Positions 9,213 to 25,348 of a DNA stretch of 64,000 bases are shown here, piece by piece. Made by a program: the position numbers and the translations under genes. Origin of the DNA: Parasphingorhabdus sp. (GTDB lineage Bacteria; Pseudomonadota; Alphaproteobacteria; Sphingomonadales; Sphingomonadaceae); NCBI GenBank assembly GCA_039978835.1, contig JBDWAQ010000005.1, positions 586,631 through 650,630 of the forward strand. The letters run 5' to 3'. The notes under the pieces were generated by a model. The model saw only the letters and a program-made list of their open reading frames with translations, did not search any database and was not told the origin of the DNA. Each line of letters starts with the position of its first letter. Positions within the stretch are counted from its first letter, which is position 1.

Positions 9213-9241
9213 TTGCCAGCCCGCAACCAAGTCGCTAACAG
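9213..9241 (+). promoter_or_regulatory. Putative sigma70 promoter of the host tRNA-Leu
   Basis: TTGCCA (9213-9218), 17 nt, then TAACAG within GCTAACAG, about 45 nt upstream of the tRNA 5' end. Confidence 0.45.
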
Positions 9242-9285: not shown

Positions 9286-9324
9286 GCCCCTGTGGTGGAA
9301 TTGGTAGACGCGCTCGACTCAAAA
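9286..9324 (+). pseudogene. 5' half of host tRNA-Leu(CAA), ending at the anticodon loop (attL)
   Basis: GCCCCTGTGGTGGAATTGGTAGACGCGCTCGACTCAAAA is followed by non-tRNA sequence (GGTTGAGTATAT). It pairs exactly with the 3' half at 63730-63783. Confidence 0.92.
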
Positions 9325-9408
9325 GGTTGAGTATATAAGGAGGAACGAGACTAAAGCATTTCCGAATTACATTTAAAAACAATGACTTAGTGAAGCATGC
9401 AGGGCGAT

Positions 9409-9440
9409 TTGACATATACGCGCCCGACAATGTGTAGATC
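9409..9440 (+). promoter_or_regulatory. Possible island-borne promoter for the internal tRNA-Leu
   Basis: Consensus TTGACA at 9409-9414. The -10 candidate (GTAGAT, about 9434-9439) has non-ideal spacing. Confidence 0.3.
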
Positions 9441-9477
9441 GAAGTTGGGCGCGGCTAAGGTGGTCACGTCATGATGT

Positions 9478-9562
9478 GCGGGCGTGGTGGAATTGGTAGA
9501 CGCGCGGGATTCAAAATCCCGTTCCGCAAGGAGTGTGGGTTCGATTCCCACCGCCCGCACCA
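9478..9562 (+). tRNA. Complete island-borne tRNA-Leu(CAA), copy A
   Basis: 85 nt. Acceptor GCGGGCG/CGCCCGC, anticodon stem CGGGA/TCCCG with loop TTCAAAA (CAA at 9512-9514), variable arm TCC-GCAA-GGA, T arm GTGGG-TTCGATT-CCCAC, encoded ACCA. Confidence 0.95.
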
Positions 9563-10211
9563 TCAAATAGCGATAATATTCGGAAATGTTTAGCTAGTGC
9601 CTATTAGAATCGACTTTTCGGGTGGTTTTTGTCGATTATTTTTGCCATCAAAATTGGTCGATAGAATGGCAGAGCATCGATAATTGACTTTATCTATTTT
9701 TTGGAAGGCTTCTGGGCCGATTGTAGACTGTCCGGTTTGTACCTCGACATCAGACAAATCGACATTCGACTTACGCCCCAGTTGCCGTCGTTTCCGCTGA
9801 TTTTTCATCTACCTGAAAGCTGTCTTAGTTATCGTCAGTTGATTCAAAAATTGTAATAAAGATGAAGTTACATGATAATAAATAATTAACTGACCAAATA
9901 TTGATGAAATATTTTGATTGAAATAAGTTCCCAATGAGATGGAATTAGAATATCTTACAATATGACGATTATTTGTCTTGTGTTTAAGATTTTCCGTACT
10001 TGCTTGGGGATGTTCAAAGAAGAGTTGCTCGATACCGACTGGGCGTCAGGCCCGTTTCGCGCTTAAATGCCTTGATGAAATGAGCTTGGCTAGAAAACCC
10101 GCTTTTGAACGCGACGTTTACAAAGGTCTGTCGTTTGTCAGCAATTAGTTTTTTGGCCAAGTTCAATTTCTGAGCAGTAACATACTGGTGGGGAGTTACG
10201 CCGACATTTTT

Positions 10212-10411
10212 TTAAAGGTTCTCGAGCAGAAAGGCGTTTTAGTCAGGCTGAGCTTGCAGAGATGGTGGGGGTTTCCGGAAACTCGATCAATTCTATTGAG
10301 AATGGAAAATTCGATCCTTCATTGCCGCTGCCATTTCGTATCGCTCATGTTTTTGATCATTCGGTCGAGGAGGCGTTCGAAAAGGTCGAAGCAGTAGCAG
10401 AGATCAAGTAA
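10212..10411 (+). pseudogene. Frameshifted XRE/Cro-type HTH regulator
   Basis: Restoring one base at about 10223 (CTC-GA-GCA) gives LKVL(R)AERRFSQAELAEMVGVSGNSINSIENGKFDPSLPLPFRIAHVF...*, a typical small XRE protein. No clear start codon. Confidence 0.7.
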
Positions 10412-10428
10412 ACGCGGTCGGAACGGCC

Positions 10429-10637
10429 GTCCACAACTGGGGTCGAAAGCCGCCACTACCGCTTCAGTGAGTTTGCGTCTGCTTTCGCCGTCTTCAGTTC
10501 CCAAAGCAGACCGTCGGTTTACCACCCCATAAGCTGACGCTGTAATGCAAACTAGCGCGTTCTGGTAGCTGACTGGCTGTTAGCGTGATTTAGCTGCTGA
10601 GAGCGGCATTTCTTCCAACGACCCAATTGCGGACATT
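10429..10637. repeat. Cluster of short dispersed-repeat units
   Basis: GTCCACAACTGGGGTCGAAAGCCGCC (10429-10454) resembles 59630-59654. ACCCAATTGCGGACATT (10621-10637) is the exact reverse complement of 58971-58987. Confidence 0.6.
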
Positions 10638-10722
10638 CAAGGTCGATGGCCGCGGCAGCTCCTGCCAACTATAGCGGGCTGCATCTAATATTTGATCACG
10701 TATTGAGTGCAGCCCGATCAAG

Positions 10723-10980
10723 TCAGTCAAGACGTAAGCGGCCAGCGGCGAGCGCCTCAGTCAGTTCTGCTAGCGTTACAAACCCGTCTCTATTTACGTC
10801 TGTCACCCTGAATTCGGCAAGGGTTGCCTTGCATCTAAGGGCTTCTTTCTCTGTGATTTTTCCATCTTTGGAACGATCACACTGTTCCATCAAATGTGGC
10901 GCTGCGTTCGTCTGCGACGGCGTCGCACACCCCGTTAGTGGGGCGAGGATTACGACTAAAATGAGAGAATTTCTAATCAT
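10723..10980 (-). CDS. Small EF-hand lipoprotein
   Basis: Lipobox LTGC and two EF-hand-like loops, DRSKDGKITEKE and DVNRDGFVTLAE. Confidence 0.7.
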   Translation of the reverse strand: MIRNSLILVVILAPLTGCATPSQTNAAPHLMEQCDRSKDGKITEKEALRCKATLAEFRVTDVNRDGFVTLAELTEALAAGRLRLD

Positions 10981-11026
10981 TATCGATACTCCGGCAATGA
11001 AGATACTGTGGGCAATAGGATAGTCA

Positions 11027-11065
11027 CCGCGACAGGGCTGGAGCGGTCCCCCGGCCCTGTCGCGG
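11027..11065. terminator. GC-rich hairpin after the beta-barrel gene
   Basis: 12-bp stem CCGCGACAGGGC/GCCCTGTCGCGG just 3' of the minus-strand stop at 11073. No clear U-tract. Confidence 0.55.
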
Positions 11066-11072
11066 CTATCGG

Positions 11073-11672
11073 CTAGAAACGAACGAGCGCACCGACCGAT
11101 ATTTTGCTCTGCTTGAAATCCTGATCGAAATTGGTGCGATTATATTCCGCCCGGACGGCGAGATTTTCGGACAAGGCGAGCTCAATGCCGCCGCCATAAG
11201 TGAAGCCCTTCTGCGTGATCGTGTTTGAGAAATTGCCGGCGGCTTGGTCCACCACGGATTCCTCAACCCTCAGCCAGCGGTAACCGCCACGCCCATAGAC
11301 AACGAGACCATTTGTGGGCGTAATGCCTGCACGCGCCGTTGCGTCATATGAAAGGCCCGGATCAGCTTTGTAGCGGCCGGGCGCAGTTAGAGACAGCTGG
11401 TCAACCGTACGGCCACCCAGGCCTACGCCGACCTCGGCACCGACCAGTAGGAAGTTACCGAGGACCAAATCATAACCGGCATGAACGCGTCCGCCGAAGC
11501 CTTTGCGCGAAGCCTCAGTGGTGCTTGTCGGTTGACTGACCTCGTTGGAATCTCGTGTTGCATCAATACCGAAATGCAACCCTTGCAGTTGGTTTTCAGA
11601 ATTGTCCTGCGCGGATACCGCAGCTGGCGCGGCCAGCAGTGCAGTTGCCAAGAAGATAAAGGGGGATTTCAT
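11073..11672 (-). CDS. Outer-membrane beta-barrel (porin-family, OmpA-like) protein
   Basis: Signal peptide, alternating amphipathic strands, GGGIE...VRAEY motif and C-terminal Phe. Confidence 0.8.
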   Translation of the reverse strand: MKSPFIFLATALLAAPAAVSAQDNSENQLQGLHFGIDATRDSNEVSQPTSTTEASRKGFGGRVHAGYDLVLGNFLLVGAEVGVGLGGRTVDQLSLTAPGRYKADPGLSYDATARAGITPTNGLVVYGRGGYRWLRVEESVVDQAAGNFSNTITQKGFTYGGGIELALSENLAVRAEYNRTNFDQDFKQSKISVGALVRF

Positions 11673-11747
11673 TGTCTACTCCATTTTCATATGGCGGCGG
11701 GCTGCCAACCATAGCGGAGTAACTGAACCTGGATCGTCGAGTTTGTG

Positions 11748-12962
11748 TCAGTTCTTTGTGGAGAATTGTTGGAGATCGGATGAGTGCGGCAGTCTCATTT
11801 CGACGACCGTTCCGCCTTCGTCGGCATTCCTGATAAAGACGTGTCCGCGGTGCGCTTCCACTATGGTTCTTACGACCGCAAGCCCCAATCCGGACCCACC
11901 AGTATTTCGATTTCGCGATGCTTCGCCCCGCCAGAAGCGATCAAAGGCTAGGGTTTCTGCGCCAGACGGCAGGCCCGGTCCTGAGTCGGTTATCTGTAGA
12001 ACCGCATCGTCGCCCGCAACGAAGGTCGCAATTTTCAACATGCCGCTATCGGGCGCGTAGCGCACGACGTTCGATAATACCGCTATGATAACTTGCCGCA
12101 CCCGCATCCCGTCGGCAGCCAATGGCACCGCGTCCAGCTTCAACGACGCCTCCAGATTTGCTTTTTCCAGATCAGGACCGACTACAGCCAAAACTCGGTG
12201 TACTTCTTCAGCCAAATCGATCTCTTCCAGCGTGAGCACCAGCCGCTGCGAGTTAGCCAAGCTAAGCGTTTGCAAATCGTCAACAAGCCGACCCAGCCCT
12301 TCGACTTGCAGAATAAGTCCGGTAATTTCGCCGGGCTCGAGGTCAAAAACCCCGTCCGCAATCCCATGCAAACGTCCCCTAAGGACGGTAAGCGGCGTTC
12401 GGAGTTCATGCGCGATCGAAGCAGTGCTTTCGGCAAGCTCTCTTTCCGCCCTCTCTAGTGAAGCCGCCATCGCGTTGAAATCATCGGCCAATCGAGATTC
12501 TTCGGACGATGTAAATTTTGACCTTCTGGCCCGAACGGAAAGGTCACCTTCGGAGATGCTTCGCGCTGCGGCGCCAACATTGCTCAACCCGCGGCCTAAA
12601 CGGCCGACAGCAAGATATCCGATGCCATAGGTTGCCGCAGCCGCGACAAGTACCATTGTGTAGAGAATTAAGTCGGATTGATCATCGAGCTCTGCAACAA
12701 TGGTTTCCAGTTCCGGACTTAACTTTTCCCATTCTTCTGGGGTTGGAATTTGCCCATCGTTCGATTTCTGCAGGATTTCCCTCACGTCGGGCGGCAGTTC
12801 TGAAACGCCCTGAACAAATGCGTAGTTGCCCCAGGCATCCGTCGCTACAATGATCAGCATGGCATTACCGACCATCGCAACCGCGAACAACAGTGATATC
12901 TGCCGAGTAAGGGGCCAGCGCCGCAATCTGGCTGCTAGCGCACTTAAAATGCCGCCGCTCAT
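11748..12962 (-). CDS. Sensor histidine kinase, BaeS/AdeS-like
   Basis: Two TM segments, HAMP domain, H-box IAHELRTPL, DSGPG, FDRFWRGEASR and GSGLGLAVV. Confidence 0.92.
   Translation of the reverse strand: MSGGILSALAARLRRWPLTRQISLLFAVAMVGNAMLIIVATDAWGNYAFVQGVSELPPDVREILQKSNDGQIPTPEEWEKLSPELETIVAELDDQSDLILYTMVLVAAAATYGIGYLAVGRLGRGLSNVGAAARSISEGDLSVRARRSKFTSSEESRLADDFNAMAASLERAERELAESTASIAHELRTPLTVLRGRLHGIADGVFDLEPGEITGLILQVEGLGRLVDDLQTLSLANSQRLVLTLEEIDLAEEVHRVLAVVGPDLEKANLEASLKLDAVPLAADGMRVRQVIIAVLSNVVRYAPDSGMLKIATFVAGDDAVLQITDSGPGLPSGAETLAFDRFWRGEASRNRNTGGSGLGLAVVRTIVEAHRGHVFIRNADEGGTVVEMRLPHSSDLQQFSTKN
11759..11775 (-). promoter_or_regulatory. Candidate OmpR-family response-regulator box
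   Basis: On the minus strand TCTCCA-N5-TCTCCA (11-bp period), about 90 nt upstream of the beta-barrel gene and inside the kinase 3' end. Confidence 0.45.
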
Positions 12963-13651
12963 GCCGCGATCAGCCGATATCCAACACCGCGAACGACAAC
13001 GCAGTGGCCGGGCGCCCCGACCGTGGTTAGTTTGCGTCGCAAATTGCTGACATGGCTATCGACAGTGCGCTCCAATGCGTCGCTTTCGGGCATACAGACA
13101 TCGACCAGCTCTGCGCGGCTGAAAACCCGGCGCGGCGCTCGGGCCATGTGTTCCAGAATTCGGTATTCCGTCAGGGTCAGTTCTAATGTTTTGTGTTCGT
13201 TCCCGATCGCTACACGGGCGATGTAACATTGGGTGTCGATCTCGATGGAGCCGACGCGGATCATCGTCGAATCTTCAGCTCCGCCACTGGTGCGTCGCAA
13301 AACCGCCTTTACCCGTGCGACGACCTCCATCGGATTGAATGGCTTGACAACATAATCATCTGCCCCAACGTGGAGCGCGGATAACTTATCCAAATCGTCC
13401 GCGCGTGCTGTCGCCATAATAACCGGCGTACTGCCCCGGCGCCTCAATTCCGCAAGAACCGAAAATCCATCACGGATCGGCATTTGCACATCCAGCAACA
13501 CCAGATCGGGTTTTAACAGTTGATGGTGCATCAAAGCTGTATGACCGTCGTTCGCAGTCACCGTGCGAAACCCATCACGCTCCAGATATGACACGAGAAT
13601 CGTGGCAATCTCTTGCTCATCTTCTGCCACCAATATTAGAGCATTTTCCAC
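12959..13651 (-). CDS. OmpR-family response regulator, BaeR/AdeR-like
   Basis: AEDE, LLDVQMP, GADDYVVKPF and winged helix ending VRGVGYRL. GTG start at 13651 follows GAGAAAGG. Confidence 0.92.
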   Translation of the reverse strand: MENALILVAEDEQEIATILVSYLERDGFRTVTANDGHTALMHHQLLKPDLVLLDVQMPIRDGFSVLAELRRRGSTPVIMATARADDLDKLSALHVGADDYVVKPFNPMEVVARVKAVLRRTSGGAEDSTMIRVGSIEIDTQCYIARVAIGNEHKTLELTLTEYRILEHMARAPRRVFSRAELVDVCMPESDALERTVDSHVSNLRRKLTTVGAPGHCVVVRGVGYRLIAA

Positions 13652-13849
13652 GACCGGAGCCTTTCTCACTTGGGTCCACGACACTCGGTAATCTATAGCG
13701 ACGCAAGTGTCGAGATCGCGTGGAGTAATGGCCGAGATTTATCGAGATCGGAATTTACCGCGAGTTTCGCACCGCCTTAATGCAATCTCCACTCTCTCTT
13801 CGCACACTCGCCCTTTTGTCAGTCGCAATCATGAAGAGGGCGTGCCGAT

Positions 13850-14944
13850 ATGCAGAAACTTGGACTCTATATTTGCACCGGTGCGGTAGCATTTCTTTTA
13901 GCGTTCTCTGCACCTGCATCGGCTCAACACACAGAGTCAGACGATTGGCCTAGGGCATCAAGTGCGGAGCTATCTGTCCTGACATATAACGTGCGCGGAT
14001 TGCCTTGGCCGATTGCCAAGAACCGTTCACGCGCACTCAGAAAAATCGCAGCAACGCTTCGTCAAATGCGCGAAAATGATGAGCACCCGCAAATTGTATT
14101 GCTGCAAGAAGCATTTACTGGCTCTGCGCGCGCGATTGGCAGGTTAGCTGGGTATAAATACGTAATCTCTGGACCTTCGTCGAAGGAGAAAAACAATGCT
14201 ATTGCCAGCCCTGCCGACAGAGAGTTTTTGACGTCGGCACAATGGGACAAGGGCGAGGGATTGGGAAAAATCTTTGGCAGCGGCTTGCAGATCCTGTCTG
14301 ACTATCCGGTCACCGAAATCCATAAATTGGCGTTTCCAAAATATGCGTGCGCAGGCTTTGATTGTCTCGCAAACAAGGGTGTTGTGCTGGTCACCGTGGA
14401 CATTCCGCGGCTCGGCTCGACGGTTCAGATCGCCAATGCCCACCTGAATGCAAAACGCAGCTCAAGAGTAAGCGAAGAACGTCGGAAGTTTGCTGTCCAG
14501 CGTCAGATCGAGGCTGCTCACGCGTTCATTGGGCAACATCTCGGGCTAGGCAGCCCGCTCATTTTCGGTGGTGACTTTAACGTCGGCAACGTCGCTTGGC
14601 GCAGGGAACTGCTGTTTGGGATGGATTGGCCGATCAAGCTCAATGCAGATGCCCTGCGAAGGCTTGCGGCCAACACAGAGTTAGAAGCCGACGCACAGGA
14701 GGCGTTGGACCGTGCGACCGATTGGCAGTTTTTCCATTCGGGCAAATCACTACAGATTATCCCTCAGCGCGTATCAATCCCTTTCGGGCGCGACGTCGAT
14801 GGCAATATGCTTTCAGATCATGTCGGTTATACGATTATATACAAGCTCACTAATATTGGAACTGAGAGTCCAGAGGTCGCGGTTCCGACTCGAGAAAGCG
14901 GACTTACTAGACCGGCATCTACGAGATTTGCTGGGACTCGATAA
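13850..14944 (+). CDS. Secreted endonuclease/exonuclease/phosphatase-family protein (sphingomyelinase-like)
   Basis: Signal peptide, TYNV, LQEAF, GSGL, NAHL, GGDFN and SDH catalytic motifs. Confidence 0.85.
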   Translation: MQKLGLYICTGAVAFLLAFSAPASAQHTESDDWPRASSAELSVLTYNVRGLPWPIAKNRSRALRKIAATLRQMRENDEHPQIVLLQEAFTGSARAIGRLAGYKYVISGPSSKEKNNAIASPADREFLTSAQWDKGEGLGKIFGSGLQILSDYPVTEIHKLAFPKYACAGFDCLANKGVVLVTVDIPRLGSTVQIANAHLNAKRSSRVSEERRKFAVQRQIEAAHAFIGQHLGLGSPLIFGGDFNVGNVAWRRELLFGMDWPIKLNADALRRLAANTELEADAQEALDRATDWQFFHSGKSLQIIPQRVSIPFGRDVDGNMLSDHVGYTIIYKLTNIGTESPEVAVPTRESGLTRPASTRFAGTR

Positions 14945-15453
14945 ACCGAACTGGGTCTGGTTCAATAATGTAAAAATGAACTTGCGGCCGGATGCCCGAC
15001 TTCCCTAGGCTTGACGAGCAAAGCACTTTCACGCGGCGTTTCCTTCTTATTACTGGGCGATCACCGTCCCCGCTCTACAATGCTCAATCCGAATGAATGT
15101 CGGTTTCCGCCCATTACCTGCCGTTGCAATGGGATCAGTAGAATGGCAGCCTCCTACCCCAATGTCTGTCGTTTCGCTGCCGCTCGAAGTGGGCCGATTG
15201 CACACTGTCTGCTGCGAGAGGCAGTGAAGCCATAAACTGCCATTCATCTAATACCACATTTGCAGACGTTCATTCCACGAAGATAAAGCAGTCGATATCG
15301 CATCGACGCGGACTTTCCGCATTCGCTGGTGACCTAGTCCAAATTGGCCCGGACCGCCGCAATCATCTGTTCACGCCCACTTTCATATTCGCCAAGGAAA
15401 GTATCAGGCGCATTGGATTGAATCTGTCTGATGCATCAGGCGTGGCCGGCGGC

Positions 15454-15647
15454 TTACAGTCGGTTCCAGCTTGCATCCGAAGCGCCGTAGAAGTACTCGC
15501 CGATCTTGCCGACGGTCTGGACACTGCCGTGGTCTGGACCGGCTTGGCCTCAATTCCCATGGTTTCGAGATCGTGGACCGTATCGGCACTGATGCCGAGT
15601 TCGACCTTGATCTGGTGGTTATTGTCACGCTTAAAACATCTCACCAT
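15454..15647 (-). pseudogene. Possible decayed C-terminal fragment of a gamma-glutamyltransferase-like gene
   Basis: HQIKVELGISADTVHDLETMG, then after a frameshift at about 15540 GPDHGSVQTVGKIGEYFYGASD. This resembles the GGT C-terminus; by-eye similarity only. Confidence 0.35.
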
Positions 15648-16071
15648 TCAATAGATTGGGCGCAGACTTTCAAGTATCATCTTGATGGTATTTTTGGCGT
15701 GTTCGACCTTTATCGCATCGTCGAGGAGTGGGATTATCTGATCAGGGCTCTCCCCAGCGGGACCTATACAGCACTCTGTCCTGGGCATCTAGAGCTGCGG
15801 TCCTGAGTGTGCGGTGTTCTTTTATTGGCGCGGCCCGCACTCTGGATCAGCGACAACGGATTGAAGTGCCGCCGGGCAGGCGACAGATCCCGCCTAAACC
15901 AGCGGCGCGGGAAACCAAATAGCAGGGACCTAGTTTGCAACAACAATGAATACTTTAGAACGAGCAAGGAAATCTCGGAAGAGCTTCAAAACCATATGGA
16001 ATTTAGTGTACCGTCAATGTCGTCAATCTAAGTTTGTCACAAAAAGCAACTACAATGATGATCAGTACAAT

Positions 16072-16722
16072 TTAAATTTCATAATGGGCAGAGGTTTTGG
16101 TTGCCACGTTTTCTGTTGAGACCCCGGGAGCCAGCTCTACTAATTTGAACGAGTTTTGGTGGTCGGCGCGTTGCATGACGCATAAATCACTTATGATCAT
16201 ATCCACGACATTTTGCCCGGTCAGTGGCAGCGTGCACTCGGGAATGAGTTTTGGACTGCCGTCCTTGGAACAGTGATCCATGACTACGATGATTTTTTTC
16301 ACACCGGCGACCAGGTCCATGGCGCCGCCCATCCCTTTGACCATCTTGCCCGGTATCATCCAATTGGCAATATCTCCGTTTTCGGCAACCTGCATCGCGC
16401 CCAGCACGGCGAGATCAATATGACCACCGCGGATCATCGCAAAACTGTCGCCGCTCGAGAAGAAGCTCGATGTTGGTAGTGCACTGACGGTTTGTTTCCC
16501 GGCGTTGATCAAGTCCGGGTCTTCCTCGCCCTCAAATGGGAACGGCCCGATACCGAGCATCCCATTTTCCGATTGCAGAGTTACCTCGACTCCATCGGGA
16601 ATATGATTGGCCACCAGCGTCGGAATACCAATACCCAGATTGACATAAAAACCATCCTGCAATTCCTGCGCGGCCCGCGCCGCCATTTCATCGCGTGTCC
16701 AACCTTTTTGCAATACAGTCAT
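16072..16722 (-). CDS. 3-oxoacid CoA-transferase subunit B (ScoB/PcaJ-like)
   Basis: [15 protein letters not shown] (catalytic Glu) and GMGGAMDLV motifs. Confidence 0.92.
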
Positions 16723-16974
16723 CCATCGTCCTTCCCGACCATTTGTACAGGGTCTTTCAATGGCACATGAATAGCCCAGCGGTCCTGTGCAGGATAGATC
16801 GACACAGCCAAATATCGTTCAGATCATGCGCTCAAAAAACTAATCCGAAGTCGCAGGATAACGGGGTGAAATGCAGCTCCTTTAGCGAATCTAATCCGGC
16901 ATAAGAGAAAATCTAAGATGCAATATGGGTTGAGTCCGATCATTGTGACGAGGTGTATTTTGGGTGATGGGATA

Positions 16975-18090
16975 ATGGCGAAAATCGACAATATCAGGGT
17001 GGTCATTGCGGATATTCCGACCATTCGCCCACATGTACTCGCCATGACCACGATGATGTCGCAAACCATGGTGCTGGTTTTTGTCCGGCGTGATGATGGC
17101 ATTGTCGGGGTAGGTGAGGCCACAACCATAGGCGGGCTAGCCTATGGAGAAGAAAGCCCGGAAAGCATCAAGACCAATATCGATACCTATTTTGCACCAA
17201 TGTTGATCGGGCAGGATGCCGATAATCCGGCGGCGGCTATGGCGCGGCTCGCCGGACTAATCGTCGGTAATCGCTTTGCCAAATGTGCGATAGAAACCGC
17301 GCTGCTGGATGGATTGGGTCAAGCAAAGAACCGGCCGGTGAGTGCCTTGTTGGGTGCGGTACAGCATGAAAAACTGCCGATTGCCTGGACGCTCGCCAGC
17401 GGCAATACCGAAGAGGATATAGAGGAAGGCGAGCGTGTTTTGAGCGCGCAGCTCCACAGGGATTTCAAACTGAAAATCGGCACGCGCAATGTTGCTGATG
17501 ACTGTGCTCATGTTGCGGCCATCGCCCGCGCTTTCGAAGGACGAGCCAGCATTCGGGTTGATGTGAATCAGCATTGGACTCGGGAACAGGCTGACGAGGG
17601 CGCAGCGCTGCTGCAAGATGCTGGCGTTGATCTGATCGAGCAACCTCTGGTTGGTCATGATGTCGCGGGGATGAAGGCGTTATGCGATCAGTTTGATATC
17701 GCGATCATGGCGGATGAGGCTCTGACCGGACCGGTCAGCGCGCAGCGTTTTGCGGATGAACAGGCCGCCGATGTCTTTGCCCTCAAAATCGCGCAATCGG
17801 GAGGCTTGACGGCTGGACGCGAAGTGGCTGCCATCGCGAATAGCGCCGCCATCGCGCTGTATGGCGGGACGATGCTGGAAGGGGCGGTCGGGACCGCTGC
17901 GTCGGCGCACCTGTTTGCCACACTGGGCCCGATGCAATGGGGAACGGAGTTGTTTGGTCCATTGCTGATGACTGAAGAAATACTGGAAGAGTCGCTCGAA
18001 TATGGTGACTTTTCACTCAGCGTACCGGCCGGGCCGGGGTTGGGAGTAAAAGTGGATGAGGACAAATTGGCGCGATTTGCCCGCAGCTGA
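16975..18090 (+). CDS. catB: Muconate cycloisomerase
   Basis: Enolase superfamily: GEATTIGGLAYGEESPE, FKLKIG, RVDVNQ, IEQP, MADE and LYGGTMLE. Start set at ATG 16975. Confidence 0.93.
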   Translation: MAKIDNIRVVIADIPTIRPHVLAMTTMMSQTMVLVFVRRDDGIVGVGEATTIGGLAYGEESPESIKTNIDTYFAPMLIGQDADNPAAAMARLAGLIVGNRFAKCAIETALLDGLGQAKNRPVSALLGAVQHEKLPIAWTLASGNTEEDIEEGERVLSAQLHRDFKLKIGTRNVADDCAHVAAIARAFEGRASIRVDVNQHWTREQADEGAALLQDAGVDLIEQPLVGHDVAGMKALCDQFDIAIMADEALTGPVSAQRFADEQAADVFALKIAQSGGLTAGREVAAIANSAAIALYGGTMLEGAVGTAASAHLFATLGPMQWGTELFGPLLMTEEILEESLEYGDFSLSVPAGPGLGVKVDEDKLARFARS

Positions 18091-18104
18091 CAGACAAGGA
18101 GAAG

Positions 18105-18392
18105 ATGATGTTGTTCATGGTAGAGATGGTAGTGAATCCACCGCTGGATATCGACAAGGATGAATTTGAAGCGTTGAAAGCGACGGAAAAGGCGCGCGCG
18201 GAAGAACTGCAGAATAGTGGAAAATGGCGACATTTATGGCGGGTGACAGGGCAATATGCCAATGTCAGCATTTTCGATGTTGCCGACGCGCAGGAACTAC
18301 ATGACATTATGATGAGCCTGCCGCTTTATCCCTTCATGGATGTGCACGTCACATCACTTTGCCAGCATCCATCCGCAATTGAACAGATTTAA
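18105..18392 (+). CDS. catC: Muconolactone delta-isomerase
   Basis: MLFMVEM...GKWRHLWRVTGQYANVSIFDV...LPLYPFM...HPS, located between catB and catA. Confidence 0.93.
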   Translation: MMLFMVEMVVNPPLDIDKDEFEALKATEKARAEELQNSGKWRHLWRVTGQYANVSIFDVADAQELHDIMMSLPLYPFMDVHVTSLCQHPSAIEQI

Positions 18393-18406
18393 TCAGGAGA
18401 GCAATC

Positions 18407-19294
18407 ATGACTGACATAGTAAAAGGCGCAGCCGTTCAGGATCTTCTCGATCGCGCTAGCGGACTGAGCGAGGATGATAGCACGCCCCGCCTGAAGGCGA
18501 TCACCCGGGACCTGCTGGAAGCCATCATGGCTATTGTTGAGAAGCACGATATTACCGAAAGTGAATTTTGGGAAGCCACGGCCTTTTTGCAGGGCGGGGC
18601 AGAGGAATTTGGTTTAATCGTCCCCGGTGTCGGACTGGAGCATTTTCTGGATCTGCATATGGATGCCAAAGATGCTGAAAATGGCTATGAAGGCGGGACG
18701 CCCCGCACCATTGAGGGACCTCTTTATGTTGAAGGCGCACCGCTGGCAGAAAATGGTGTGAATCTCTCCACCGACCCGGATGATACCGAAACATTGACCA
18801 TGTCCGGAGTATTACGCGGACCGGATGGTGAACCGGTAAAGGATGCCATCCTGCATGTATGGCATGCCAATTCCAAAGGTTTCTATTCGCACTTCGATCC
18901 AACCGGTGAACAATCACCGTTCAACAATCGCCGCCGTATCCAGTTGGGCGATGACGGGCGCTATGCGTTTGAATCGAAAATGCCGCGCGGTTACAGCTGT
19001 CCTCCTGGCGGTGCGACCGAGAAGCTGATGCAGCTGCTTGGTCGTCATGGCGACCGGCCGGCCCATGTGCATTTCTTTGTTGAAGCTCCCGGTTACCGCG
19101 CATTGACCACGCAGATTAATTTCGGAGATGACCCGCTGGCCCGCAGCGATTTCGCTTTCGGGACACGAGATGGTTTGTTGCCTGTGCCAAATCGAGATGG
19201 CGATACCGCCCATGTCGAATTTGATTTCGAGCTTCAGAAAGCCAAATCATCGGACGATGAAAAATTCTCAGCTCGACCGCGTTTGAGCGCTTAG
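18407..19294 (+). CDS. catA: Catechol 1,2-dioxygenase
   Basis: GTPRTIEGPLYV, WHANSKGFYS and RPAHVHF intradiol dioxygenase motifs. Confidence 0.93.
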   Translation: MTDIVKGAAVQDLLDRASGLSEDDSTPRLKAITRDLLEAIMAIVEKHDITESEFWEATAFLQGGAEEFGLIVPGVGLEHFLDLHMDAKDAENGYEGGTPRTIEGPLYVEGAPLAENGVNLSTDPDDTETLTMSGVLRGPDGEPVKDAILHVWHANSKGFYSHFDPTGEQSPFNNRRRIQLGDDGRYAFESKMPRGYSCPPGGATEKLMQLLGRHGDRPAHVHFFVEAPGYRALTTQINFGDDPLARSDFAFGTRDGLLPVPNRDGDTAHVEFDFELQKAKSSDDEKFSARPRLSA

Positions 19295-20002
19295 ATGGTA
19301 CAGAAAGTCTTTGATAATCCGGAAGCTGCTCTGGAGGGCGTGCTGTTCGATGGCATGACAATAATGTCCGGCGGTTTTGGTCTTTCGGGAAACCCGGAAA
19401 GCCTGATCCCTGCCATTCGGGACGTGGGCGTCAAGGACCTGACAATAATCTCGAACAATTGCGGAGCGGATGGCTTTGGGCTGTGGATGTTGCTCAATAA
19501 TGGTCAGATCAAAAAGATGATCAGCTCTTATGTCGGTGAGAATAAACTTTTTGAAAGCCTGTATCTGGAAGGCAAGCTGGAACTGGAGCTCAGCCCGCAA
19601 GGAACATTGGCTGAGCGTATTCGTGCCGGTGGTGCCGGAATTCCAGCGTTCTTTACCAGGACCGGCGTTGGAACAGTGGTTGCTGAAGGGAAACCGGTCG
19701 AAGAGTTTGACGGGGAGCTTTATGTGCGCGAGAAATGGCTGCGTGCGGATTTGTCGATCATAAAGGCATGGCGTGCGGACACGGCCGGTAATTTGATGTT
19801 CCGCAAAACTGCGCGTAACTTCAATCCCAATATGGCAACCGCGGGGAAAGTGACAGTGGTGGAAGTGGAGGAGATTGTTGAACCCGGAGCATTCGATCCG
19901 GACTGCATCCATATTCCCGGCATTTATGTCGACCGGATCATTCAAAGCACGATCAACGAGAAACGCATCGAAAAGCTGACCACAAGGCCGCGACCGGTAT
20001 GA
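19295..20002 (+). CDS. 3-oxoacid CoA-transferase subunit A (ScoA/PcaI-like)
   Basis: SGGFGLSGNPE, PQGTLAERIRAGGAGIPAF and KTARNFNP motifs. Confidence 0.92.
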   Translation: MVQKVFDNPEAALEGVLFDGMTIMSGGFGLSGNPESLIPAIRDVGVKDLTIISNNCGADGFGLWMLLNNGQIKKMISSYVGENKLFESLYLEGKLELELSPQGTLAERIRAGGAGIPAFFTRTGVGTVVAEGKPVEEFDGELYVREKWLRADLSIIKAWRADTAGNLMFRKTARNFNPNMATAGKVTVVEVEEIVEPGAFDPDCIHIPGIYVDRIIQSTINEKRIEKLTTRPRPV

Positions 20003-20793
20003 CGGCGGGCAGCTTCCTCACCGACGACGGTTGCCGGATAGTCTATGATTATCAGCCCCGGACAGGCACACCGGTTATTCTGTTCTCTCCTTCGCTAGGT
20101 ACGGCAATGGCGCTTTTCGACGCGCAGGCAGAGGCGTTGGGAGCGCATTTTTCCGTGCTGCGCTATGATATGCGTGGCCATGGCGCATCCGATGCACCGG
20201 ATGGCGGCTATGCAATGGACCGGCTGGGCAGGGATGTTGTCGAGCTGCTTGATCATCTCGAGATTGAAAAAGCGCATTTTCTGGGCGTTTCGCTGGGCGG
20301 TATGACCGGACAATGGTTAGGTTACCGCGCGCCGGAGCGGATTGATCGGCTGATACTGGCCAATACTTCGGCCTATATGGGACCCCCGGCCGGCTGGGAG
20401 GATCGCATCGCGGCGGTTCTGGAAAGTGGGATGGGGCCGATGGTTGAACCGGTTCTGGAGCGTTGGTTCACACCAGATTTTCGGGAGTCCGGCGATGCAG
20501 CAGTAGAGAAAATAGGCCAGCTTCTGGAACGGACCAAAGCGACGGGCTATGCCGGTTGTTCTGCTGCCATTCGGGACATGGATATGCGCCCGATCCTGTC
20601 GTTGATTTCTGTTCCTACCTTAGTCGTTGCGGGACTCAGAGACCCGGCAACACCGCCGGAACATGCACAGTATCTCGCAAATAATATTCCGGATGCAAGT
20701 TTCGTTGAACTGAATGCCGCGCATCTTAGCAACGTTGAGTTACCTGACGAGTTCTCGGTTGCAGTGCGCAATTTTCTGGGGGTTCCATCGTGA
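19999..20793 (+). CDS. pcaD: 3-oxoadipate enol-lactonase
   Basis: YDMRGHG, GVSLGG and AAHLSNVE motifs; in the cat operon. Confidence 0.88.
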   Translation: MTAGSFLTDDGCRIVYDYQPRTGTPVILFSPSLGTAMALFDAQAEALGAHFSVLRYDMRGHGASDAPDGGYAMDRLGRDVVELLDHLEIEKAHFLGVSLGGMTGQWLGYRAPERIDRLILANTSAYMGPPAGWEDRIAAVLESGMGPMVEPVLERWFTPDFRESGDAAVEKIGQLLERTKATGYAGCSAAIRDMDMRPILSLISVPTLVVAGLRDPATPPEHAQYLANNIPDASFVELNAAHLSNVELPDEFSVAVRNFLGVPS

Positions 20794-21968
20794 CCGACCT
20801 CAAACAGGATTTTCTGCAAGGCATGAGCTTTGCGGCCGCGACCGTCAACATTGTGACGACCGGCGGTCCAGCTGGGCGCTCTGGTGTGACTGTCTCGGCC
20901 ATGTCATCGGTATCGGCGGACACGGAAAACCCGACATTGCTCGTCTGTGTCAATGATGCCAGCTCTGGCGCTGCGCCGATCATGGAAAATGGGGTGTTCT
21001 GCGTGAATATCTTGCGTGATGATCAATCGTTTATTTCAGACACATTTGCCGGGCGCTATGGTGACAAAGGCGAAGCCAAATTTGCGTGCGGGAATTGGCA
21101 GGAATTAGCCACTGGCGCACCTGCGTTGGAAAACGCGCTGGTTTCGTTTGACTGCCGCCTGACCAATGACGTGGTCGTTGGAACCCATCATGTGTTCTTC
21201 GGTGAAGTACAGGCGATGAAACTCGCGGATACGGGCTTGCCGCTGATTTACGCCAATCGTTCCTATGGTACCCCTTTCAGCTTACCCAATGCCGCACTCG
21301 AAAAATCCTCCCGACAGGAGAAAGTGGACAGGGTCAGGCTCGGTTGCCTCAATTCCTTCGGCCCATTTATACTGCCCGAGCTGCTGACCGGTATTCAAAA
21401 AAAGCAACCGTCCCTGCAGATTGAAGTGATCGAAGGGGATCAGGCGCAGGCGGTTGATGCAGCAGCCAGTCACGATGTGGATTTTTCGATCGTTTATGAT
21501 CGGCATTTGCCGGATAGTTTATCTGTAAAACCGCTGGCCGAGCTGCGACCCTATATTCTGCTTCCCGAAAGTCATATTTTGGCGAACGAGAAATCCGTTT
21601 CATTGGCGCAGCTTCAAACAGATCCGCTCATTCTTCTCGATGCACCACTCAGTCGCGAATATTTCCTGTCGCTATTTGAGGCCGCCGGTCTGAAACCTCA
21701 AATCGGAATGCGAACGTCGTCGTTTGAGCTGGTTCGTTCGATGGTGGCCAATGGTGCGGGCTATGCGTTGCTAGTGACCAAGCCAGCCAATATGATGAGT
21801 TATGATGGCAAGCCGTTGGTCACCAAACAGATTACCGATGATGTCGAAAAAATTGGCATCTCAATCGCCGGCCGTGCCGACACTGATCTGTCCGAAGCGG
21901 CAAAATCGGTCGAATTATATTGTCAGGAATATTTTGCGGAACTGCGAAACAGTAACAACACACCCTAG
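20790..21968 (+). CDS. Flavin reductase (IacG/HpaC-like) fused to a LysR substrate-binding domain, no HTH
   Basis: About aa 1-160: GRSGVTVSAMSSVS...PTLLVCVN...GTHHVFFGEV...PLIY. After a linker of about 25 aa comes a LysR effector domain (RLGCLNSFGPFILPELL...EGDQ...DFSIVYD...LVRSMVANGAGYALL). Confidence 0.8.
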   Translation: MTDLKQDFLQGMSFAAATVNIVTTGGPAGRSGVTVSAMSSVSADTENPTLLVCVNDASSGAAPIMENGVFCVNILRDDQSFISDTFAGRYGDKGEAKFACGNWQELATGAPALENALVSFDCRLTNDVVVGTHHVFFGEVQAMKLADTGLPLIYANRSYGTPFSLPNAALEKSSRQEKVDRVRLGCLNSFGPFILPELLTGIQKKQPSLQIEVIEGDQAQAVDAAASHDVDFSIVYDRHLPDSLSVKPLAELRPYILLPESHILANEKSVSLAQLQTDPLILLDAPLSREYFLSLFEAAGLKPQIGMRTSSFELVRSMVANGAGYALLVTKPANMMSYDGKPLVTKQITDDVEKIGISIAGRADTDLSEAAKSVELYCQEYFAELRNSNNTP

Positions 21969-22711
21969 CGCAGATACAGTCCGCCATTGACGTCATAGGT
22001 TGCACCTATGGCCGATACTGCAGCAGGGTCGGCCAATAACAGAACCAGCTTTGCGATATAATCGGGATCGCCGAGAACACCGGCGGGAATGGATCTGGTT
22101 ACGGCTTCCAACTTGTCGGGCGGCAGCAGGGAGCGAACGGAATCCAGGTCCAGCGGCCCTGGCGATATTGCATTGACGGTCACGCCATCGGCGGCGAGAT
22201 CGCGGGCAAAGACCTTGGTGAGAGTCATGATGCCGCCCTTGGACGCTGCATAGTGGGCGCCCGTTGCCGCGCCACCATTTTGACCGGCCAAAGAGGCCAT
22301 ATTGATGATCCGTCCATAGCCGCTTTCACGCATATGCCGTCCCAGCACCTGACAGCCGACAAACGTACCTTTCAGCGCAATTGCGGTAACTGCGTCAAAT
22401 TCTTCGGGAGAAATGTCGAACAGCGGCGTTGTTTTTGTCAGTGCCGCGTTGTTGATTAGAACGCCGACACCGCCCCATTTTTCGCTGGCCAGTTCTACGA
22501 CCGCACGAAAGCTCTCGGGATCGCGCACGTCCAATATGGTGGTTGTTACCTCTCCGCCTATCTCCGCCGCAGCAGATTCAAGACCACTGGCATCAACATC
22601 AGTCATGACAACCCGATATCCTGCACCAGCAAGGCGATTGGAGATTACCGCACCCAGTCCGCCTGCGGCCCCGGTGACAATAGCCACGTTATGATGCGCG
22701 GGTATCGTCAT
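21965..22711 (-). CDS. iacE: Short-chain dehydrogenase of the IAA pathway
   Basis: TGAAGGLG, NNAA and YAASKGG motifs; position directly after the dioxygenase beta subunit. Confidence 0.8.
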   Translation of the reverse strand: MTIPAHHNVAIVTGAAGGLGAVISNRLAGAGYRVVMTDVDASGLESAAAEIGGEVTTTILDVRDPESFRAVVELASEKWGGVGVLINNAALTKTTPLFDISPEEFDAVTAIALKGTFVGCQVLGRHMRESGYGRIINMASLAGQNGGAATGAHYAASKGGIMTLTKVFARDLAADGVTVNAISPGPLDLDSVRSLLPPDKLEAVTRSIPAGVLGDPDYIAKLVLLLADPAAVSAIGATYDVNGGLYLR

Positions 22712-23196
22712 AGCAAAAAAGTTATCCCGGCAAGGGCGTCCGTAGAGTTTATCAAACGCACGATTTTCCGGACGACTTTAAAGCTATCGCCGTAAGGTCG
22801 TAAAGACCATGTAACGTTGGCCGCATAGATACCATGCTTGTCGAATTTATACTGCACCAGATTTTGTGCACAGCGAATATGGATGTTGTCGTCGCCGTCA
22901 TTTTCAAGCCGGCGAAACCGTGAAACCGTACGCAATGTGTGGGCCGCGTGAGCAGCCGACATCGATTGCCCGCTGGACAATCTGCGTACGCGCATGTCGC
23001 GCATGGCGCCGCCGTCATAGGCATAATTCAGACTATTCTCGAAATCCGTTTCGAGTGGATCAATCGGGATGATATATTTCCCGTCATCGTCCCACAATGT
23101 GAGCCATTCCTGATAGTCCTTCTGGTCGAGCAAATCCGCCTCAAACCAGATAAATTCTGCTGCGGCGGCCAGATCGGTTTTCAGCTTCTGGTTCAT
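22708..23196 (-). CDS. iacD: Aromatic ring-hydroxylating dioxygenase beta subunit
   Basis: EFIWFEADLLD...WLTLW...YIIP. ATGA overlap with the alpha subunit. Confidence 0.85.
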   Translation of the reverse strand: MNQKLKTDLAAAAEFIWFEADLLDQKDYQEWLTLWDDDGKYIIPIDPLETDFENSLNYAYDGGAMRDMRVRRLSSGQSMSAAHAAHTLRTVSRFRRLENDGDDNIHIRCAQNLVQYKFDKHGIYAANVTWSLRPYGDSFKVVRKIVRLINSTDALAGITFLL

Positions 23197-25317: not shown

Positions 25318-25348
25318 CAGTCGATCCTTTGTCTGTTATGCTGTTCGC

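What the first reader, a model, noticed from the sequence alone, without database searches (positions are those of the whole stretch)
9478..9562. Island brings a complete foreign replacement tRNA-Leu(CAA) that lacks the att sequence
Seen: copy A starts 153 nt after the broken 5' half, on the same strand and with the same anticodon. It differs from the reconstructed host tRNA at 18 of 85 positions. Sixteen of these form eight compensated base pairs (4 acceptor, 2 anticodon stem, 2 T stem), while the D arm and variable arm are identical. This covariation indicates a functional tRNA from another lineage rather than a target duplication. Its anticodon arm (CGGGA-TTCAAAA-TCCCG) does not contain the ACTCAAAA core or the CTCGA/TCGAG flanks. 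Inference: the element complements the UUG-decoding function it destroys with a whole gene that cannot itself be targeted, and that gene could be driven by the host promoter (9213-9241) or its own TTGACA (9409).
Basis: partly seen in the sequence, partly recalled or inferred. Interest (0 to 1): 0.85.

Follow-up and report, generated by a model that had tools for sequence, protein, structure and literature searches.

The report
Island-borne whole replacement tRNA-Leu gene
A 54-kb genomic island split the host's tRNA-Leu(CAA) gene in its anticodon loop without repairing it and instead carries a complete tRNA-Leu(CAA) gene of its own; related sequences show this is the standard design of a large, apparently undescribed family of integrating elements in sphingomonad bacteria.

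Summary
Copy A (9478-9562) is a complete tRNA-Leu(CAA), 153 nt after the broken host 5' half (9286-9324). It differs from the host tRNA at 18 positions, 16 of them in eight compensated pairs. A related genome (L002) has the intact host tRNA at the empty site and no copy A, so 9325-63729 is a 54.4-kb insertion flanked by an 8-bp core, ACTCAAAA.

In at least 25 other loci the same host 5' half, cut at the same base, is followed by arm-type repeats, a divergent tyrosine integrase (Int1), a promoter-like motif, a complete tRNA-Leu(CAA) and variable, mostly defence-like cargo. The window holds an integrase-less, probably immobile member.

In every element sampled, its own tRNA differs from its target inside the 8-bp core:
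- Most have U32 instead of C32.
- One has U31.
- Elements that target tRNA-Leu(UAA) have a group I intron splitting the core.

A second integrase type (Int2) targets the U32 form and brings a C32 tRNA, so "cannot be targeted" holds only for the cognate integrase.

Expression and charging of copy A remain untested. I rate this a new variant of tRNA-gene-targeting islands, of high interest.

The parts
9213..9241 (+). Promoter-like motif of the host tRNA gene (TTGCCA-N17-TAACAG). It now points into the broken 5' half, the 153-nt spacer and copy A.
   Evidence: Read from the sequence. The same motif is conserved upstream of the orthologous tRNA in L002, L006 and L025. The strict consensus scan did not flag it. 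Function is inferred.
9286..9324 (+). Displaced 5' half of the host tRNA-Leu(CAA) (attL side). It ends with the 8-bp core ACTCAAAA at 9317-9324.
   Evidence: Identical to nt 1-39 of the intact tRNA in L002. The alignment to L002 stops at 9324. The same break point is seen in about 20 other loci.
9325..9477 (+). Remnant of the element's left end. Where relatives carry arm repeats and the integrase gene (about 1.46 kb), only 153 nt remain. It includes the TTGACA at 9409.
   Evidence: The first ~30 nt resemble the left ends of integrase-bearing elements. It is 73% identical to the equivalent spacer of L025. tblastn finds no integrase remnant. There are no CTTACACA repeats here.
9478..9562 (+). 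Copy A: complete element-borne tRNA-Leu(CAA) with anticodon loop UUCAAAA (U32), discriminator A73 and an encoded CCA.
   Evidence: The sequence is identical in 36 metagenomic loci, most of them directly downstream of Int1.
9563..10645 (.). About 1.1 kb of AT-rich sequence after copy A with no ORF of 90 aa or more. Relatives have a hairpin terminator and then cargo at this point.
   Evidence: 43% GC in 9001-10000. No Rfam family matches. No terminator-like site follows A.
9325..63729 (.). The inserted island, 54,405 bp. Its cargo is catabolic and regulatory genes: catechol and Rieske dioxygenases, CoA transferases, amidase, tricorn-like protease, TonB receptor, sulfatase, a hydroxyproline-type cluster and others. 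It has no intact integrase and no conjugation or phage genes.
   Evidence: Pfam scans. Boundaries come from the alignment to the empty site in L002.
59045..59129 (+). Copy B: second complete tRNA-Leu(CAA), 94% identical to A and also U32. It has five changes, one of which breaks a variable-arm pair and two of which create G-U pairs.
   Evidence: The exact B sequence was not found in the metagenome scan, although the search pattern allowed it.
59179..59595 (+). C-terminal fragment (138 aa) of an ordinary XerC-like or phage-type tyrosine integrase just after copy B. It is unrelated to Int1.
   Evidence: Pfam PF00589, E 8e-16. NCBIfam gives only Xer or integron-integrase partial hits. tblastn with Int1 finds no similarity.
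63600..63729 (+). Right end of the element (P arm), with arm-type repeats CTTACACA at 63651-63658 and 63663-63670 and an inverted near-copy at 63680-63687.
   Evidence: These are the only exact CTTACACA copies in the window. The region is homologous to the right-end fragment in L015. The same repeat lies between the core and int in integrase-bearing relatives.
63730..63783 (+). Second copy of the core (63730-63737) plus the displaced 3' half of the host tRNA-Leu(CAA) (attR side).
   Evidence: The alignment to L002 resumes exactly at 63730.

Best explanation
Copy A is the replacement tRNA-Leu(CAA) gene carried by an integrative element. The family is widespread in Sphingomonadales and uses a divergent tyrosine integrase (Int1). 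Int1 recombines an attP core, ACTCAAAA, with the identical 8 bp in the anticodon loop of the host tRNA-Leu(CAA) (positions 31-38, C32 form).

Classical tRNA-targeting islands carry a tRNA fragment at attP that rebuilds the gene. This element carries none, so the host gene stays split: the 5' half at attL and the 3' half at attR. In its place the element brings a whole tRNA-Leu(CAA) gene just downstream of int, with its own promoter-like motif and a terminator in intact members.

That gene keeps the D arm, variable arm and A73, which are thought to matter for LeuRS, and its stems are fully compensated. Its loop reads AUUCAAAA, with U32. This heterology inside the crossover region should stop Int1 from recombining with the element's own tRNA. 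Without it, Int1 could delete its own gene or allow self-targeting.

Carrying a whole gene also frees the element from matching the host's stems, so it can enter hosts whose tRNA-Leu(CAA) differs. In the window, int and the left-arm repeats have been lost (153 nt remain), so the 54.4-kb island is probably fixed. Copy A, with copy B as a possible spare, then serves as the cell's CAA-anticodon tRNA-Leu, transcribed either from the host tRNA promoter by read-through or from an unverified promoter of its own.

Shown here: the insertion, its boundaries, the family architecture, the core differences and the covariation. Inferred: expression and charging, immunity through core heterology, and loss of mobility.
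For: - **Empty site.** L002 holds the intact host tRNA and no copy A. Both flanks align at about 90% and overlap by the 8-bp core.
- **Complete tRNA.** ARAGORN calls it and Rfam scores it 57.8 bits. Host and A differ by eight compensated pairs. Across ten element-borne and host tRNAs, 99.1% of cells pair and 14 of 23 pairs show changes on both sides, reached by 0 of 500 shuffles.
- **Family architecture.** All 36 metagenomic loci found carry the exact copy-A sequence. About 20 show a host 5' half ending in ACTCAAAA, then CTTACACA repeats, Int1, a promoter-like GTTGCG..TATAGG motif and the tRNA, at a constant spacing of about 1460 nt.
- **Unbiased sampling.** Loci reached through Int1 homologues alone show the same layout and U32: Sphingomonas, Sphingopyxis, Sphingorhabdus.
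- **Mobility.** The integrase region is 88-96% identical between loci whose flanks are 73-85% identical or cannot be aligned. One identical integrase protein of a sister element sits in four different genomic contexts. Cargo varies between loci.
- **Canonical attP layout.** The window's right end carries the family's arm repeats, so the right-end repeats, the core, the left-end repeats and int would form a canonical attP. No arm repeats lie near A.
- **Integrase nature.** The 29 best Foldseek hits for Int1 are all tyrosine recombinases. Relatives are annotated as tyrosine recombinases, some with PF00589.
- **Core rule.** In every instance the element's own core differs from its target: U32, U31, or an intron.
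Against: - There is no integrase or remnant of one in the window, so membership rests on end homology and on L025.
- Nothing shows that A is expressed or charged. The RNA runs with the same species label gave zero reads. Metatranscriptome contigs with the exact A sequence include promoter flanks and could be DNA.
- No consensus promoter or terminator was found around A.
- The metagenome search required the exact A sequence, so "identical in 36 loci" is true by construction. Only the integrase-based sampling, about 10 loci, is unbiased.
- UUG may also be read by tRNA-Leu(UAA), so complementation may not be essential.
- The rest of the genome was not available to check for another tRNA-Leu(CAA). 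Assembly contigs of run X1 showed none at this genome's depth, which is weak evidence.
- The A-type tRNA also occurs without an integrase next to comM (L012, L018), so it may be a native gene of some lineage.
- Immunity through a single-base heterology is inferred from general tyrosine-recombinase behaviour and has not been tested for Int1.
Confidence: 0.78

Rival explanations
1. Tandem of two classical islands. One island carries a 5' tRNA fragment with a promoter and a second carries a 3' tRNA fragment. Both integrate into the same anticodon loop, so the complete tRNA between them is a chimera of two element fragments sitting in a hybrid att site. [quoted passage not shown]
For: The gross layout matches: 5' half, short segment, complete tRNA, long segment, 3' half. 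It parallels the Anabaena case (bioRxiv 10.64898/2025.12.09.693284). Islands that carry 5' tDNA fragments are known (Islander statistics, PMC4383910).
Against: - A hybrid att site would contain the same core as attL and attR, but A has AUUCAAAA, not ACUCAAAA.
- Arm-type repeats lie only at the outer ends and never beside the tRNA.
- The unit from int to the tRNA keeps a constant spacing of about 1460 nt and travels as one piece with varied cargo.
- Either fragment alone, joined to a host half, would give mismatched acceptor, anticodon and T stems.
Confidence: 0.05
2. Copy A and copy B are non-functional or dispensable passengers. They came in with foreign DNA, and UUG is decoded by tRNA-Leu(UAA) or by another CAA gene elsewhere in the genome. 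On this view the "replacement" is a coincidence rather than a selected design.
For: Expression was not shown. No consensus promoter was found. Copy B has a mismatch and two G-U changes, which would fit relaxed constraint. Bacterial tRNA-Leu(UAA) can often read UUG (general knowledge).
Against: - Int is linked to a complete tRNA-Leu of the same anticodon as the target in every sampled member. Elements that target tRNA-Leu(UAA) carry tRNA-Leu(UAA).
- Element tRNAs keep 99% pairing, with 14 compensated pairs.
- Copy A is 85/85 identical between the window and L025, while the adjacent spacer is 73% identical.
- Where the element has decayed (L013, L029), the tRNA survives while int and the host half are lost.
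Confidence: 0.1
3. Copy A is a resident second tRNA-Leu(CAA) gene of this chromosome region. On this view the insertion, made by whatever mechanism, lies downstream of it, and the 5' half is a local partial duplication.
For: The 22-nt D-arm stretch is identical in the 5' half and in A. The last 10 nt before each are somewhat alike (family D3).
Against: The nearest empty-site genome has one intact tRNA followed directly by the right flank. Its alignment to the window breaks exactly at the core on both sides. The matching 3' half lies 54 kb away. The same break point occurs in many unrelated flanks.
Confidence: 0.03

Closest known systems
Classical tRNA-gene-targeting genomic islands and prophages with an anticodon-loop attP (Williams 2002 classes; Islander database, PMC4383910)
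   Same: A tyrosine integrase acts on a short identity block centred on the 7-nt anticodon loop. The island is bounded by tRNA pieces. Arm-type repeats flank the core. The cargo is variable.
   Different: [quoted passage not shown] Here the junction carries no tRNA fragment and the host gene stays broken. A separate, complete gene with its own promoter-like motif lies about 1.3 kb inside the element, and int lies between the host 5' half and that gene.
Anabaena variabilis 37-kb excision element in tRNA-Cys (bioRxiv 10.64898/2025.12.09.693284)
   Same: Integration occurs in the anticodon loop. The resulting tRNA differs from the native one by compensated stem changes. Partial tRNA copies lie on both sides of a complete one.
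   Different: There the complete gene is a recombinant of the chromosomal 5' part and the element's 3' part. Here copy A is self-contained and shares neither half with the host.
Islands that replace the 5' end of their target and supply a promoter (reversed-orientation tRNA element of Mesorhizobium, Zhao & Williams 2002; dusA-specific integrases, PMC4482086). The first is cited from memory, the second from its abstract only.
   Same: Int lies on the 5' side of the target, co-oriented with it. The element supplies the promoter for the working gene copy.
   Different: Those elements still rebuild a hybrid gene across the crossover point. Here nothing is rebuilt.
tRNA genes carried by phages and other mobile elements as cargo, for codon supply or to counter tRNA-targeting defence such as PARIS (PMC11464382)
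   Same: A mobile element encodes a complete, functional-looking tRNA.
   Different: Those tRNAs are not tied to the element's integration site. Here the tRNA always has the same anticodon as the gene the element destroys and differs from it in the crossover core.
Group I introns in bacterial tRNA-Leu(UAA) genes (type Leu.3Ug; bioRxiv 10.1101/2020.01.27.920355)
   Same: The sister elements' tRNA-Leu(UAA) has an intron at CUU/a...g/AAAA that matches Rfam RF00028.
   Different: Here the intron-bearing gene is the replacement tRNA of an element whose att core (ACTTAAAA) is the very sequence the intron splits. I found no description of that link.

Membership tests
tRNA-gene-targeting integrative island (as defined for Islander) | The target tRNA gene is split, with a short identical core at both island ends, and related genomes have an uninterrupted site. 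| tested here: met
   The core ACTCAAAA lies at 9317-9324 and 63730-63737. L002 has the intact gene, and both flanks align up to the core.
tRNA-gene-targeting integrative island (as defined for Islander) | A tyrosine integrase gene lies inside the island next to one end. | tested here: not met
   The window has no Int1 remnant and no intact integrase among the island ORFs. Only an unrelated 138-aa fragment follows copy B. The feature is met in relatives, so the window holds a decayed member.
tRNA-gene-targeting integrative island (as defined for Islander) | The island carries a tRNA fragment at attP that regenerates a functional hybrid gene. | tested here: not met
   After the core, attL continues GGTTGAGTATATAAGG with no tRNA 3' part. 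ARAGORN and Rfam call no tRNA at 9286. This is the respect in which the family departs from the known kind.
Int1-type whole-tRNA-replacing elements (family defined here) | The left end after the core is homologous to the family's, and the right end carries CTTACACA arm repeats about 45-80 nt from the core. | tested here: met
   The left end resembles the ends of L021, L037 and L041 and matches L025. The right end is homologous to L015 and carries the only exact CTTACACA copies in the window.
Int1-type whole-tRNA-replacing elements (family defined here) | A complete tRNA-Leu(CAA) with U32 lies near the left end, on the same strand as the host half. | tested here: met
   Copy A at 9478-9562 is identical to the tRNA that follows Int1 in the metagenomic loci.
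Functional bacterial tRNA-Leu (class II tRNA) | A cloverleaf with a long variable arm, supported by covariation. | tested here: met
   Rfam gives 57.8 bits and ARAGORN calls it. 99.1% of cells pair and 14 of 23 pairs are compensated, reached by 0 of 500 shuffles.
Functional bacterial tRNA-Leu (class II tRNA) | LeuRS identity features (discriminator A73, D-arm and variable-arm architecture) are shared with the host tRNA. | tested here: met
   Columns 8-27 and 45-57 are identical to the host, and A82 (= A73) and the CCA are present. That these are the identity elements in this organism is taken from knowledge of E. coli.
Functional bacterial tRNA-Leu (class II tRNA) | The gene is transcribed, processed and aminoacylated. 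| not testable with these tools
   RNA runs with the same species label gave no reads on this stretch. Metatranscriptome contigs hold the sequence but may be DNA.
Tyrosine recombinase superfamily (for Int1 of the relatives) | A sequence match to the catalytic-domain model (Pfam PF00589). | tested here: not met
   L006 Int1 has no PF00589 hit at E <= 0.01 and only a weak SAM-like hit. There is no NCBIfam hit and no PDB sequence hit. Some Int2-branch homologues do carry PF00589.
Tyrosine recombinase superfamily (for Int1 of the relatives) | The tyrosine-recombinase fold and catalytic motifs. | tested here: inconclusive
   The AlphaFold model has low confidence (pLDDT 54). Even so, the 29 best Foldseek hits are all XerA, Tn1549 Int, Cre or lambda Int (E 4e-5 to 2e-3, TM about 0.2-0.28). 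GLRPDE, LRHTY and EKYYGRH motifs are visible by eye.

The most novel reading that the evidence does not exclude
A large superfamily of alphaproteobacterial integrases, mainly in Sphingomonadales with thousands of homologues, breaks the rule that tRNA-targeting islands repair their target. These elements leave tRNA-Leu split and carry a whole substitute gene whose crossover core is deliberately different: U32, U31, or a group I intron that splits the core in DNA but is presumably spliced out of the RNA.

Two integrase types have reciprocal specificities. One targets the C32 form and brings U32. The other targets U32 and brings C32. Each integration therefore creates the other's attachment site, which allows unlimited alternating stacking of islands at one locus.
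Probability: 0.5. Interest if true: 0.88.

Novelty: new variant of a known kind. Interest (0 to 1): 0.78.

Why it matters
The standard view is that islands integrating into tRNA genes carry a gene fragment that restores the target. Island-finding software such as Islander is built on that view. This family shows a different solution: abandon the target and bring a whole gene.

- **Host range.** The element no longer depends on the host's tRNA stem sequences. The host halves seen here have at least four anticodon-stem and three acceptor-stem variants.
- **Detection.** Fragment-based searches are likely to miss or mis-bound such islands.
- **Evolution of tRNA genes.** Whole tRNA genes would be replaced horizontally. 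Several lineages now appear to use only the element's tRNA, with the integrase long gone.
- **A testable question.** The consistent difference between the element's own core and its target core gives a clean test of how tyrosine integrases avoid self-targeting.
- **Wider links.** The intron-split and reciprocal-specificity variants, if confirmed, would give a new role to tRNA group I introns and a mechanism for building composite islands.

Tried and rejected
- **Viral contigs.** No exact match to the A/B tRNA pattern, so there is no sign of a phage origin.
- **Plasmid collection.** Only tRNA-length hits at 87% identity or less. The left end of the island is not plasmid-derived in that set.
- **Consensus promoter and terminator scan of 9150-9750.** No promoter. 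The one terminator-like hit overlaps the host promoter motif and is probably spurious.
- **RNA evidence.** Three RNA-seq runs with the same species label had zero reads on the region and are probably a different organism under that label. Four metatranscriptome assemblies hold the exact tRNA, but with promoter flanks, so they could be DNA or read-through.
- **Integrase remnant in the window.** tblastn with Int1 found nothing.
- **Integrase classification by sequence.** Pfam, NCBIfam and PDB sequence searches gave nothing for Int1. Only the fold comparison pointed to tyrosine recombinases.
- **Second complete element.** No right end or host 3' half lies within 10 kb downstream in any fetched relative. 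The window remains the only example seen with both ends.
- **Transposon reading of the 8-bp repeat.** I considered a target-site duplication and rejected it. There are no terminal inverted repeats, the same 8 bp is used in every locus, and arm repeats and an integrase are present in relatives.
- **Literature.** Five full-text searches found no description of whole-tRNA replacement by an integrating element. Williams 2002 (PMC100330) is not held.

Full report
**1. The observation**

ARAGORN finds two complete tRNA-Leu(CAA) genes on the + strand: copy A at 9478-9562 and copy B at 59045-59129. Rfam scores them 57.8 and 57.9 bits against a gathering score of 29. The 39 nt at 9286-9324 are the 5' part of a different tRNA-Leu(CAA). 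Its 3' part lies at 63730-63783. Copy A begins 153 nt after the 5' half.

In the alignment of the reconstructed host tRNA with copy A, 18 of 85 positions differ. Sixteen form eight pairs changed on both sides: four in the acceptor stem, two in the anticodon stem and two in the T stem. The other two are position 32 of the anticodon loop and one T-loop base. The D arm and the variable arm are identical.

**2. It is an insertion, and the empty site lacks copy A**

A search with the flanking prepilin-peptidase gene found a related genome, an uncultured Sphingomonadaceae contig (L002; 83% protein identity). At the same place it has one intact tRNA-Leu(CAA) that equals the join of the two window halves. 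Window 1-9324 aligns to L002 at 89.7% and stops at 9324. Window 63730-64000 aligns at 90.1% and starts at 63730. The two alignments overlap by 8 nt in L002, the core ACTCAAAA.

So 9325-63729 (54,405 bp) is inserted into the anticodon loop, with the core present at both ends.

**3. What the island holds**

Pfam scans of the roughly 45 island ORFs give only catabolic, transport and regulatory genes. There is no intact integrase and there are no conjugation or phage genes. The only recombinase trace is a 138-aa C-terminal fragment of an ordinary Xer or phage-type integrase directly after copy B.

**4. The family behind it**

A scan of metagenome contigs for the exact A/B-type tRNA returned 36 loci, all with the copy-A sequence. 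In about 20 of them a host-type tRNA-Leu 5' half lies upstream, cut at exactly the same base after ACTCAAAA. It is followed, in order, by:

- two CTTACACA repeats;
- a 428-440-aa ORF on the same strand;
- a conserved promoter-like motif (GTTGCG..N..TATAGG);
- the complete tRNA;
- a hairpin;
- variable cargo such as Fic, helicases and restriction or defence-type genes.

The spacing from the 5' half to the tRNA is a constant ~1460 nt.

The ORF (Int1) has more than 6800 homologues. The closest are annotated as site-specific integrase in Sphingomonas, Sphingopyxis, Sphingorhabdus and Blastomonas. Sequence models do not recognise it. A low-confidence structure model nevertheless matches only tyrosine recombinases at the top of a fold search, and relatives on the Int2 branch carry PF00589.

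Loci reached through the integrase alone, which avoids the bias of the tRNA search, show the same layout. The integrase region is 88-96% identical between loci whose flanks are 73-85% identical or cannot be aligned. The identical integrase protein of a sister element sits in four different contexts. The elements therefore move horizontally.

**5. Where the window fits**

The window's right end carries the family's arm repeats, which are the only exact CTTACACA copies in 64 kb. It is homologous to a right-end fragment in L015. Its left end matches the family for the first ~30 nt, but the arm repeats and int are missing. Only 153 nt remain, and tblastn finds no remnant.

One metagenomic locus, L025, has the same integrase-less arrangement: 81.7% identity over 9232-9567 and a spacer 73% identical. 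Other loci show further decay. In L013 only scraps of int and the tRNA remain after the same peptidase gene. L029 keeps the last bases of int before the tRNA.

The window therefore holds a degenerate, probably immobile member. Its outer ends would form a canonical attP: right-end repeats, core, left end. Copy A is an internal gene and is not part of an att site.

**6. The replacement tRNA never has the target's core**

| Element type | Loci | Target core | Element's own tRNA |
|---|---|---|---|
| Int1 | L006-L041 set, L042, L048-L052 | ACTCAAAA (C32) | ATTCAAAA (U32) |
| Int2-branch relative | L053 (Sphingobium cloacae) | ACTCAAAA | TCTCAAAA (31:39 pair flipped) |
| Int2-branch relatives | L055, L056 | ACTCAAAA | U32 |
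| tRNA-Leu(UAA)-targeting | L044-L047, L054 | ACTTAAAA | tRNA-Leu(UAA) split at CTT/AAAA by a group I intron (RF00028, 52 bits, E 2e-12) |
| Int2 | L051, L052 | ATTCAAAA (the U32 tRNA of an Int1 element, itself cut) | complete C32 tRNA |

In L052 the cut 5' half is the exact first 39 nt of copy A.

"Cannot be targeted" applies only to the cognate integrase, and the two types regenerate each other's target. That a single heterology in the overlap region blocks recombination is established for lambda Int, Cre, Flp and XerCD. Applying it to Int1 is my inference.

**7. Is copy A a working tRNA?**

Across ten element-borne and host tRNAs, 99.1% of pair cells are standard pairs and 14 of 23 pairs show compensatory change, reached by 0 of 500 shuffles. 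Slid controls give 34-45% pairing. Copy A shares A73, the D arm and the variable arm with the host tRNA. It is 85/85 identical between the window and L025, while the neighbouring spacer is 73% identical.

This argues for selection on function, but expression was not shown. RNA runs of the same species label had no reads and metatranscriptome contigs are ambiguous. The host promoter-like motif at 9213-9241 is conserved in orthologous loci and could drive read-through into A, since no terminator lies between them. The TTGACA at 9409 has no convincing -10 element, and the consensus scan found nothing.

**8. Rivals**

- A tandem of two fragment-carrying islands, as in the Anabaena tRNA-Cys locus, is contradicted by the different core in A, by the absence of arm repeats beside it, and by the behaviour of int and the tRNA as one unit.
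- A resident second gene is contradicted by the empty site.
- A dispensable passenger cannot be excluded without RNA data. It fits poorly with the strict match between target anticodon and cargo anticodon and with the survival of the tRNA in decayed elements.

**9. Comparison with what is known**

The closest known kind is the anticodon-loop class of tRNA-gene-targeting islands. The shared features are the recombinase type, the crossover in the anticodon loop, the arm repeats and the variable cargo. The defining difference is that no tRNA fragment is carried and no hybrid gene is rebuilt, which the Islander paper states as the general principle. Five full-text literature searches found no description of whole-gene replacement. 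I therefore rate it a new variant of a known kind. This rests on a limited library and on my own knowledge.

**10. Verdict**

- Observation: confirmed.
- Interpretation: supported, with the qualifications given above.
- Confidence in the best explanation: 0.78.
- Interest: 0.78.

Noticed in passing
L051:11288-12825 and L052:11288-12825: Nested elements. The U32 tRNA that follows Int1 is itself cut right after ATTCAAAA. A second, related integrase (Int2, ~385-390 aa) follows, and then a complete tRNA-Leu(CAA) with C32. The two element types have reciprocal target and cargo cores, so each integration recreates the other's target.
   Followed up: partly
L044:11320-11650 (also L045-L047); L054, downstream of int (4174-4590): Sister elements that insert at ACTTAAAA (tRNA-Leu(UAA)) carry a tRNA-Leu(UAA) gene interrupted at CTT/AAAA by a group I intron (Rfam RF00028, 52 bits). 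The att core is therefore absent from the DNA but would be restored in the spliced RNA. ARAGORN does not call these genes.
   Followed up: partly
L044, L046, L047 at ~9870-9890 or 8240-8260; L056 at ~2860-2890: The same elements also sit at non-tRNA secondary sites that share only the core (CCTTAAAA, ACTTAAAA, GACTCAAAA). The identical integrase protein P0113 occurs in four different genomic contexts.
   Followed up: partly
L053:4255-4338 (Sphingobium cloacae AP017655): This element's tRNA-Leu(CAA) keeps C32 but flips the closing 31:39 pair from A-U to U-A (GGGT-CTCAAAA-ACCC). This is a different way of changing the 8-bp core.
   Followed up: no
window 59045-59595: Copy B (94% identical to A, U32) has one broken variable-arm pair and two new G-U pairs. 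Within 50 nt it is followed by the C-terminal 138 aa of an unrelated Xer or phage-type integrase. It may be the relic of a separate, classical 3'-end integration into B. The exact B sequence was not found in the metagenome scan.
   Followed up: partly
window 9286-9324 versus L025 (oriented) 2644-2682: The broken, presumably useless host 5' half is 37/39 identical between the window and L025, whereas the adjacent spacer is 73% identical. Possible causes are gene conversion with copy A (22 nt are shared), independent integrations, or a role in transcription. This is unresolved.
   Followed up: no
L015 (oriented) 1420-1560: An element right end (four CTTACACA repeats plus the core) is fused into the C-terminal part of an Int1 gene at CCTCAAA/TTCGA, a sequence inside int that resembles the att core. 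It looks like a secondary-site event or a deletion between an attR and this pseudo-site.
   Followed up: no
L014, L036, L040, L029, L052 (efp-inositol monophosphatase locus); L012, L018 (after a comM-like gene): In different hosts tRNA-Leu(CAA) sits in at least three chromosomal contexts. At the efp locus, L052 has the full element and L029 only scraps of int before the A-type tRNA. In L012 and L018 the A-type tRNA follows comM with no integrase, which may be the native source of the A type.
   Followed up: partly
window 57582-58934: The Creatinase_N domain and the Peptidase_M24 domain of what is normally one Xaa-Pro peptidase or creatinase gene fall in two separate ORFs (57582-58229 and 58254-58934). 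The gene may be disrupted just upstream of copy B.
   Followed up: no
window 20790-21968: One ORF combines a flavin-reductase domain (residues 14-160) with a LysR substrate-binding domain (176-381) and has no HTH. It is either an unusual fusion or two genes read as one.
   Followed up: no
window 9150-9750 in run X1: The assembly graph of the source run breaks at the shared D-arm sequence. The sample holds other organisms at 4-6 times higher depth, so the source is a mixed culture or metagenome rather than a pure isolate.
   Followed up: no
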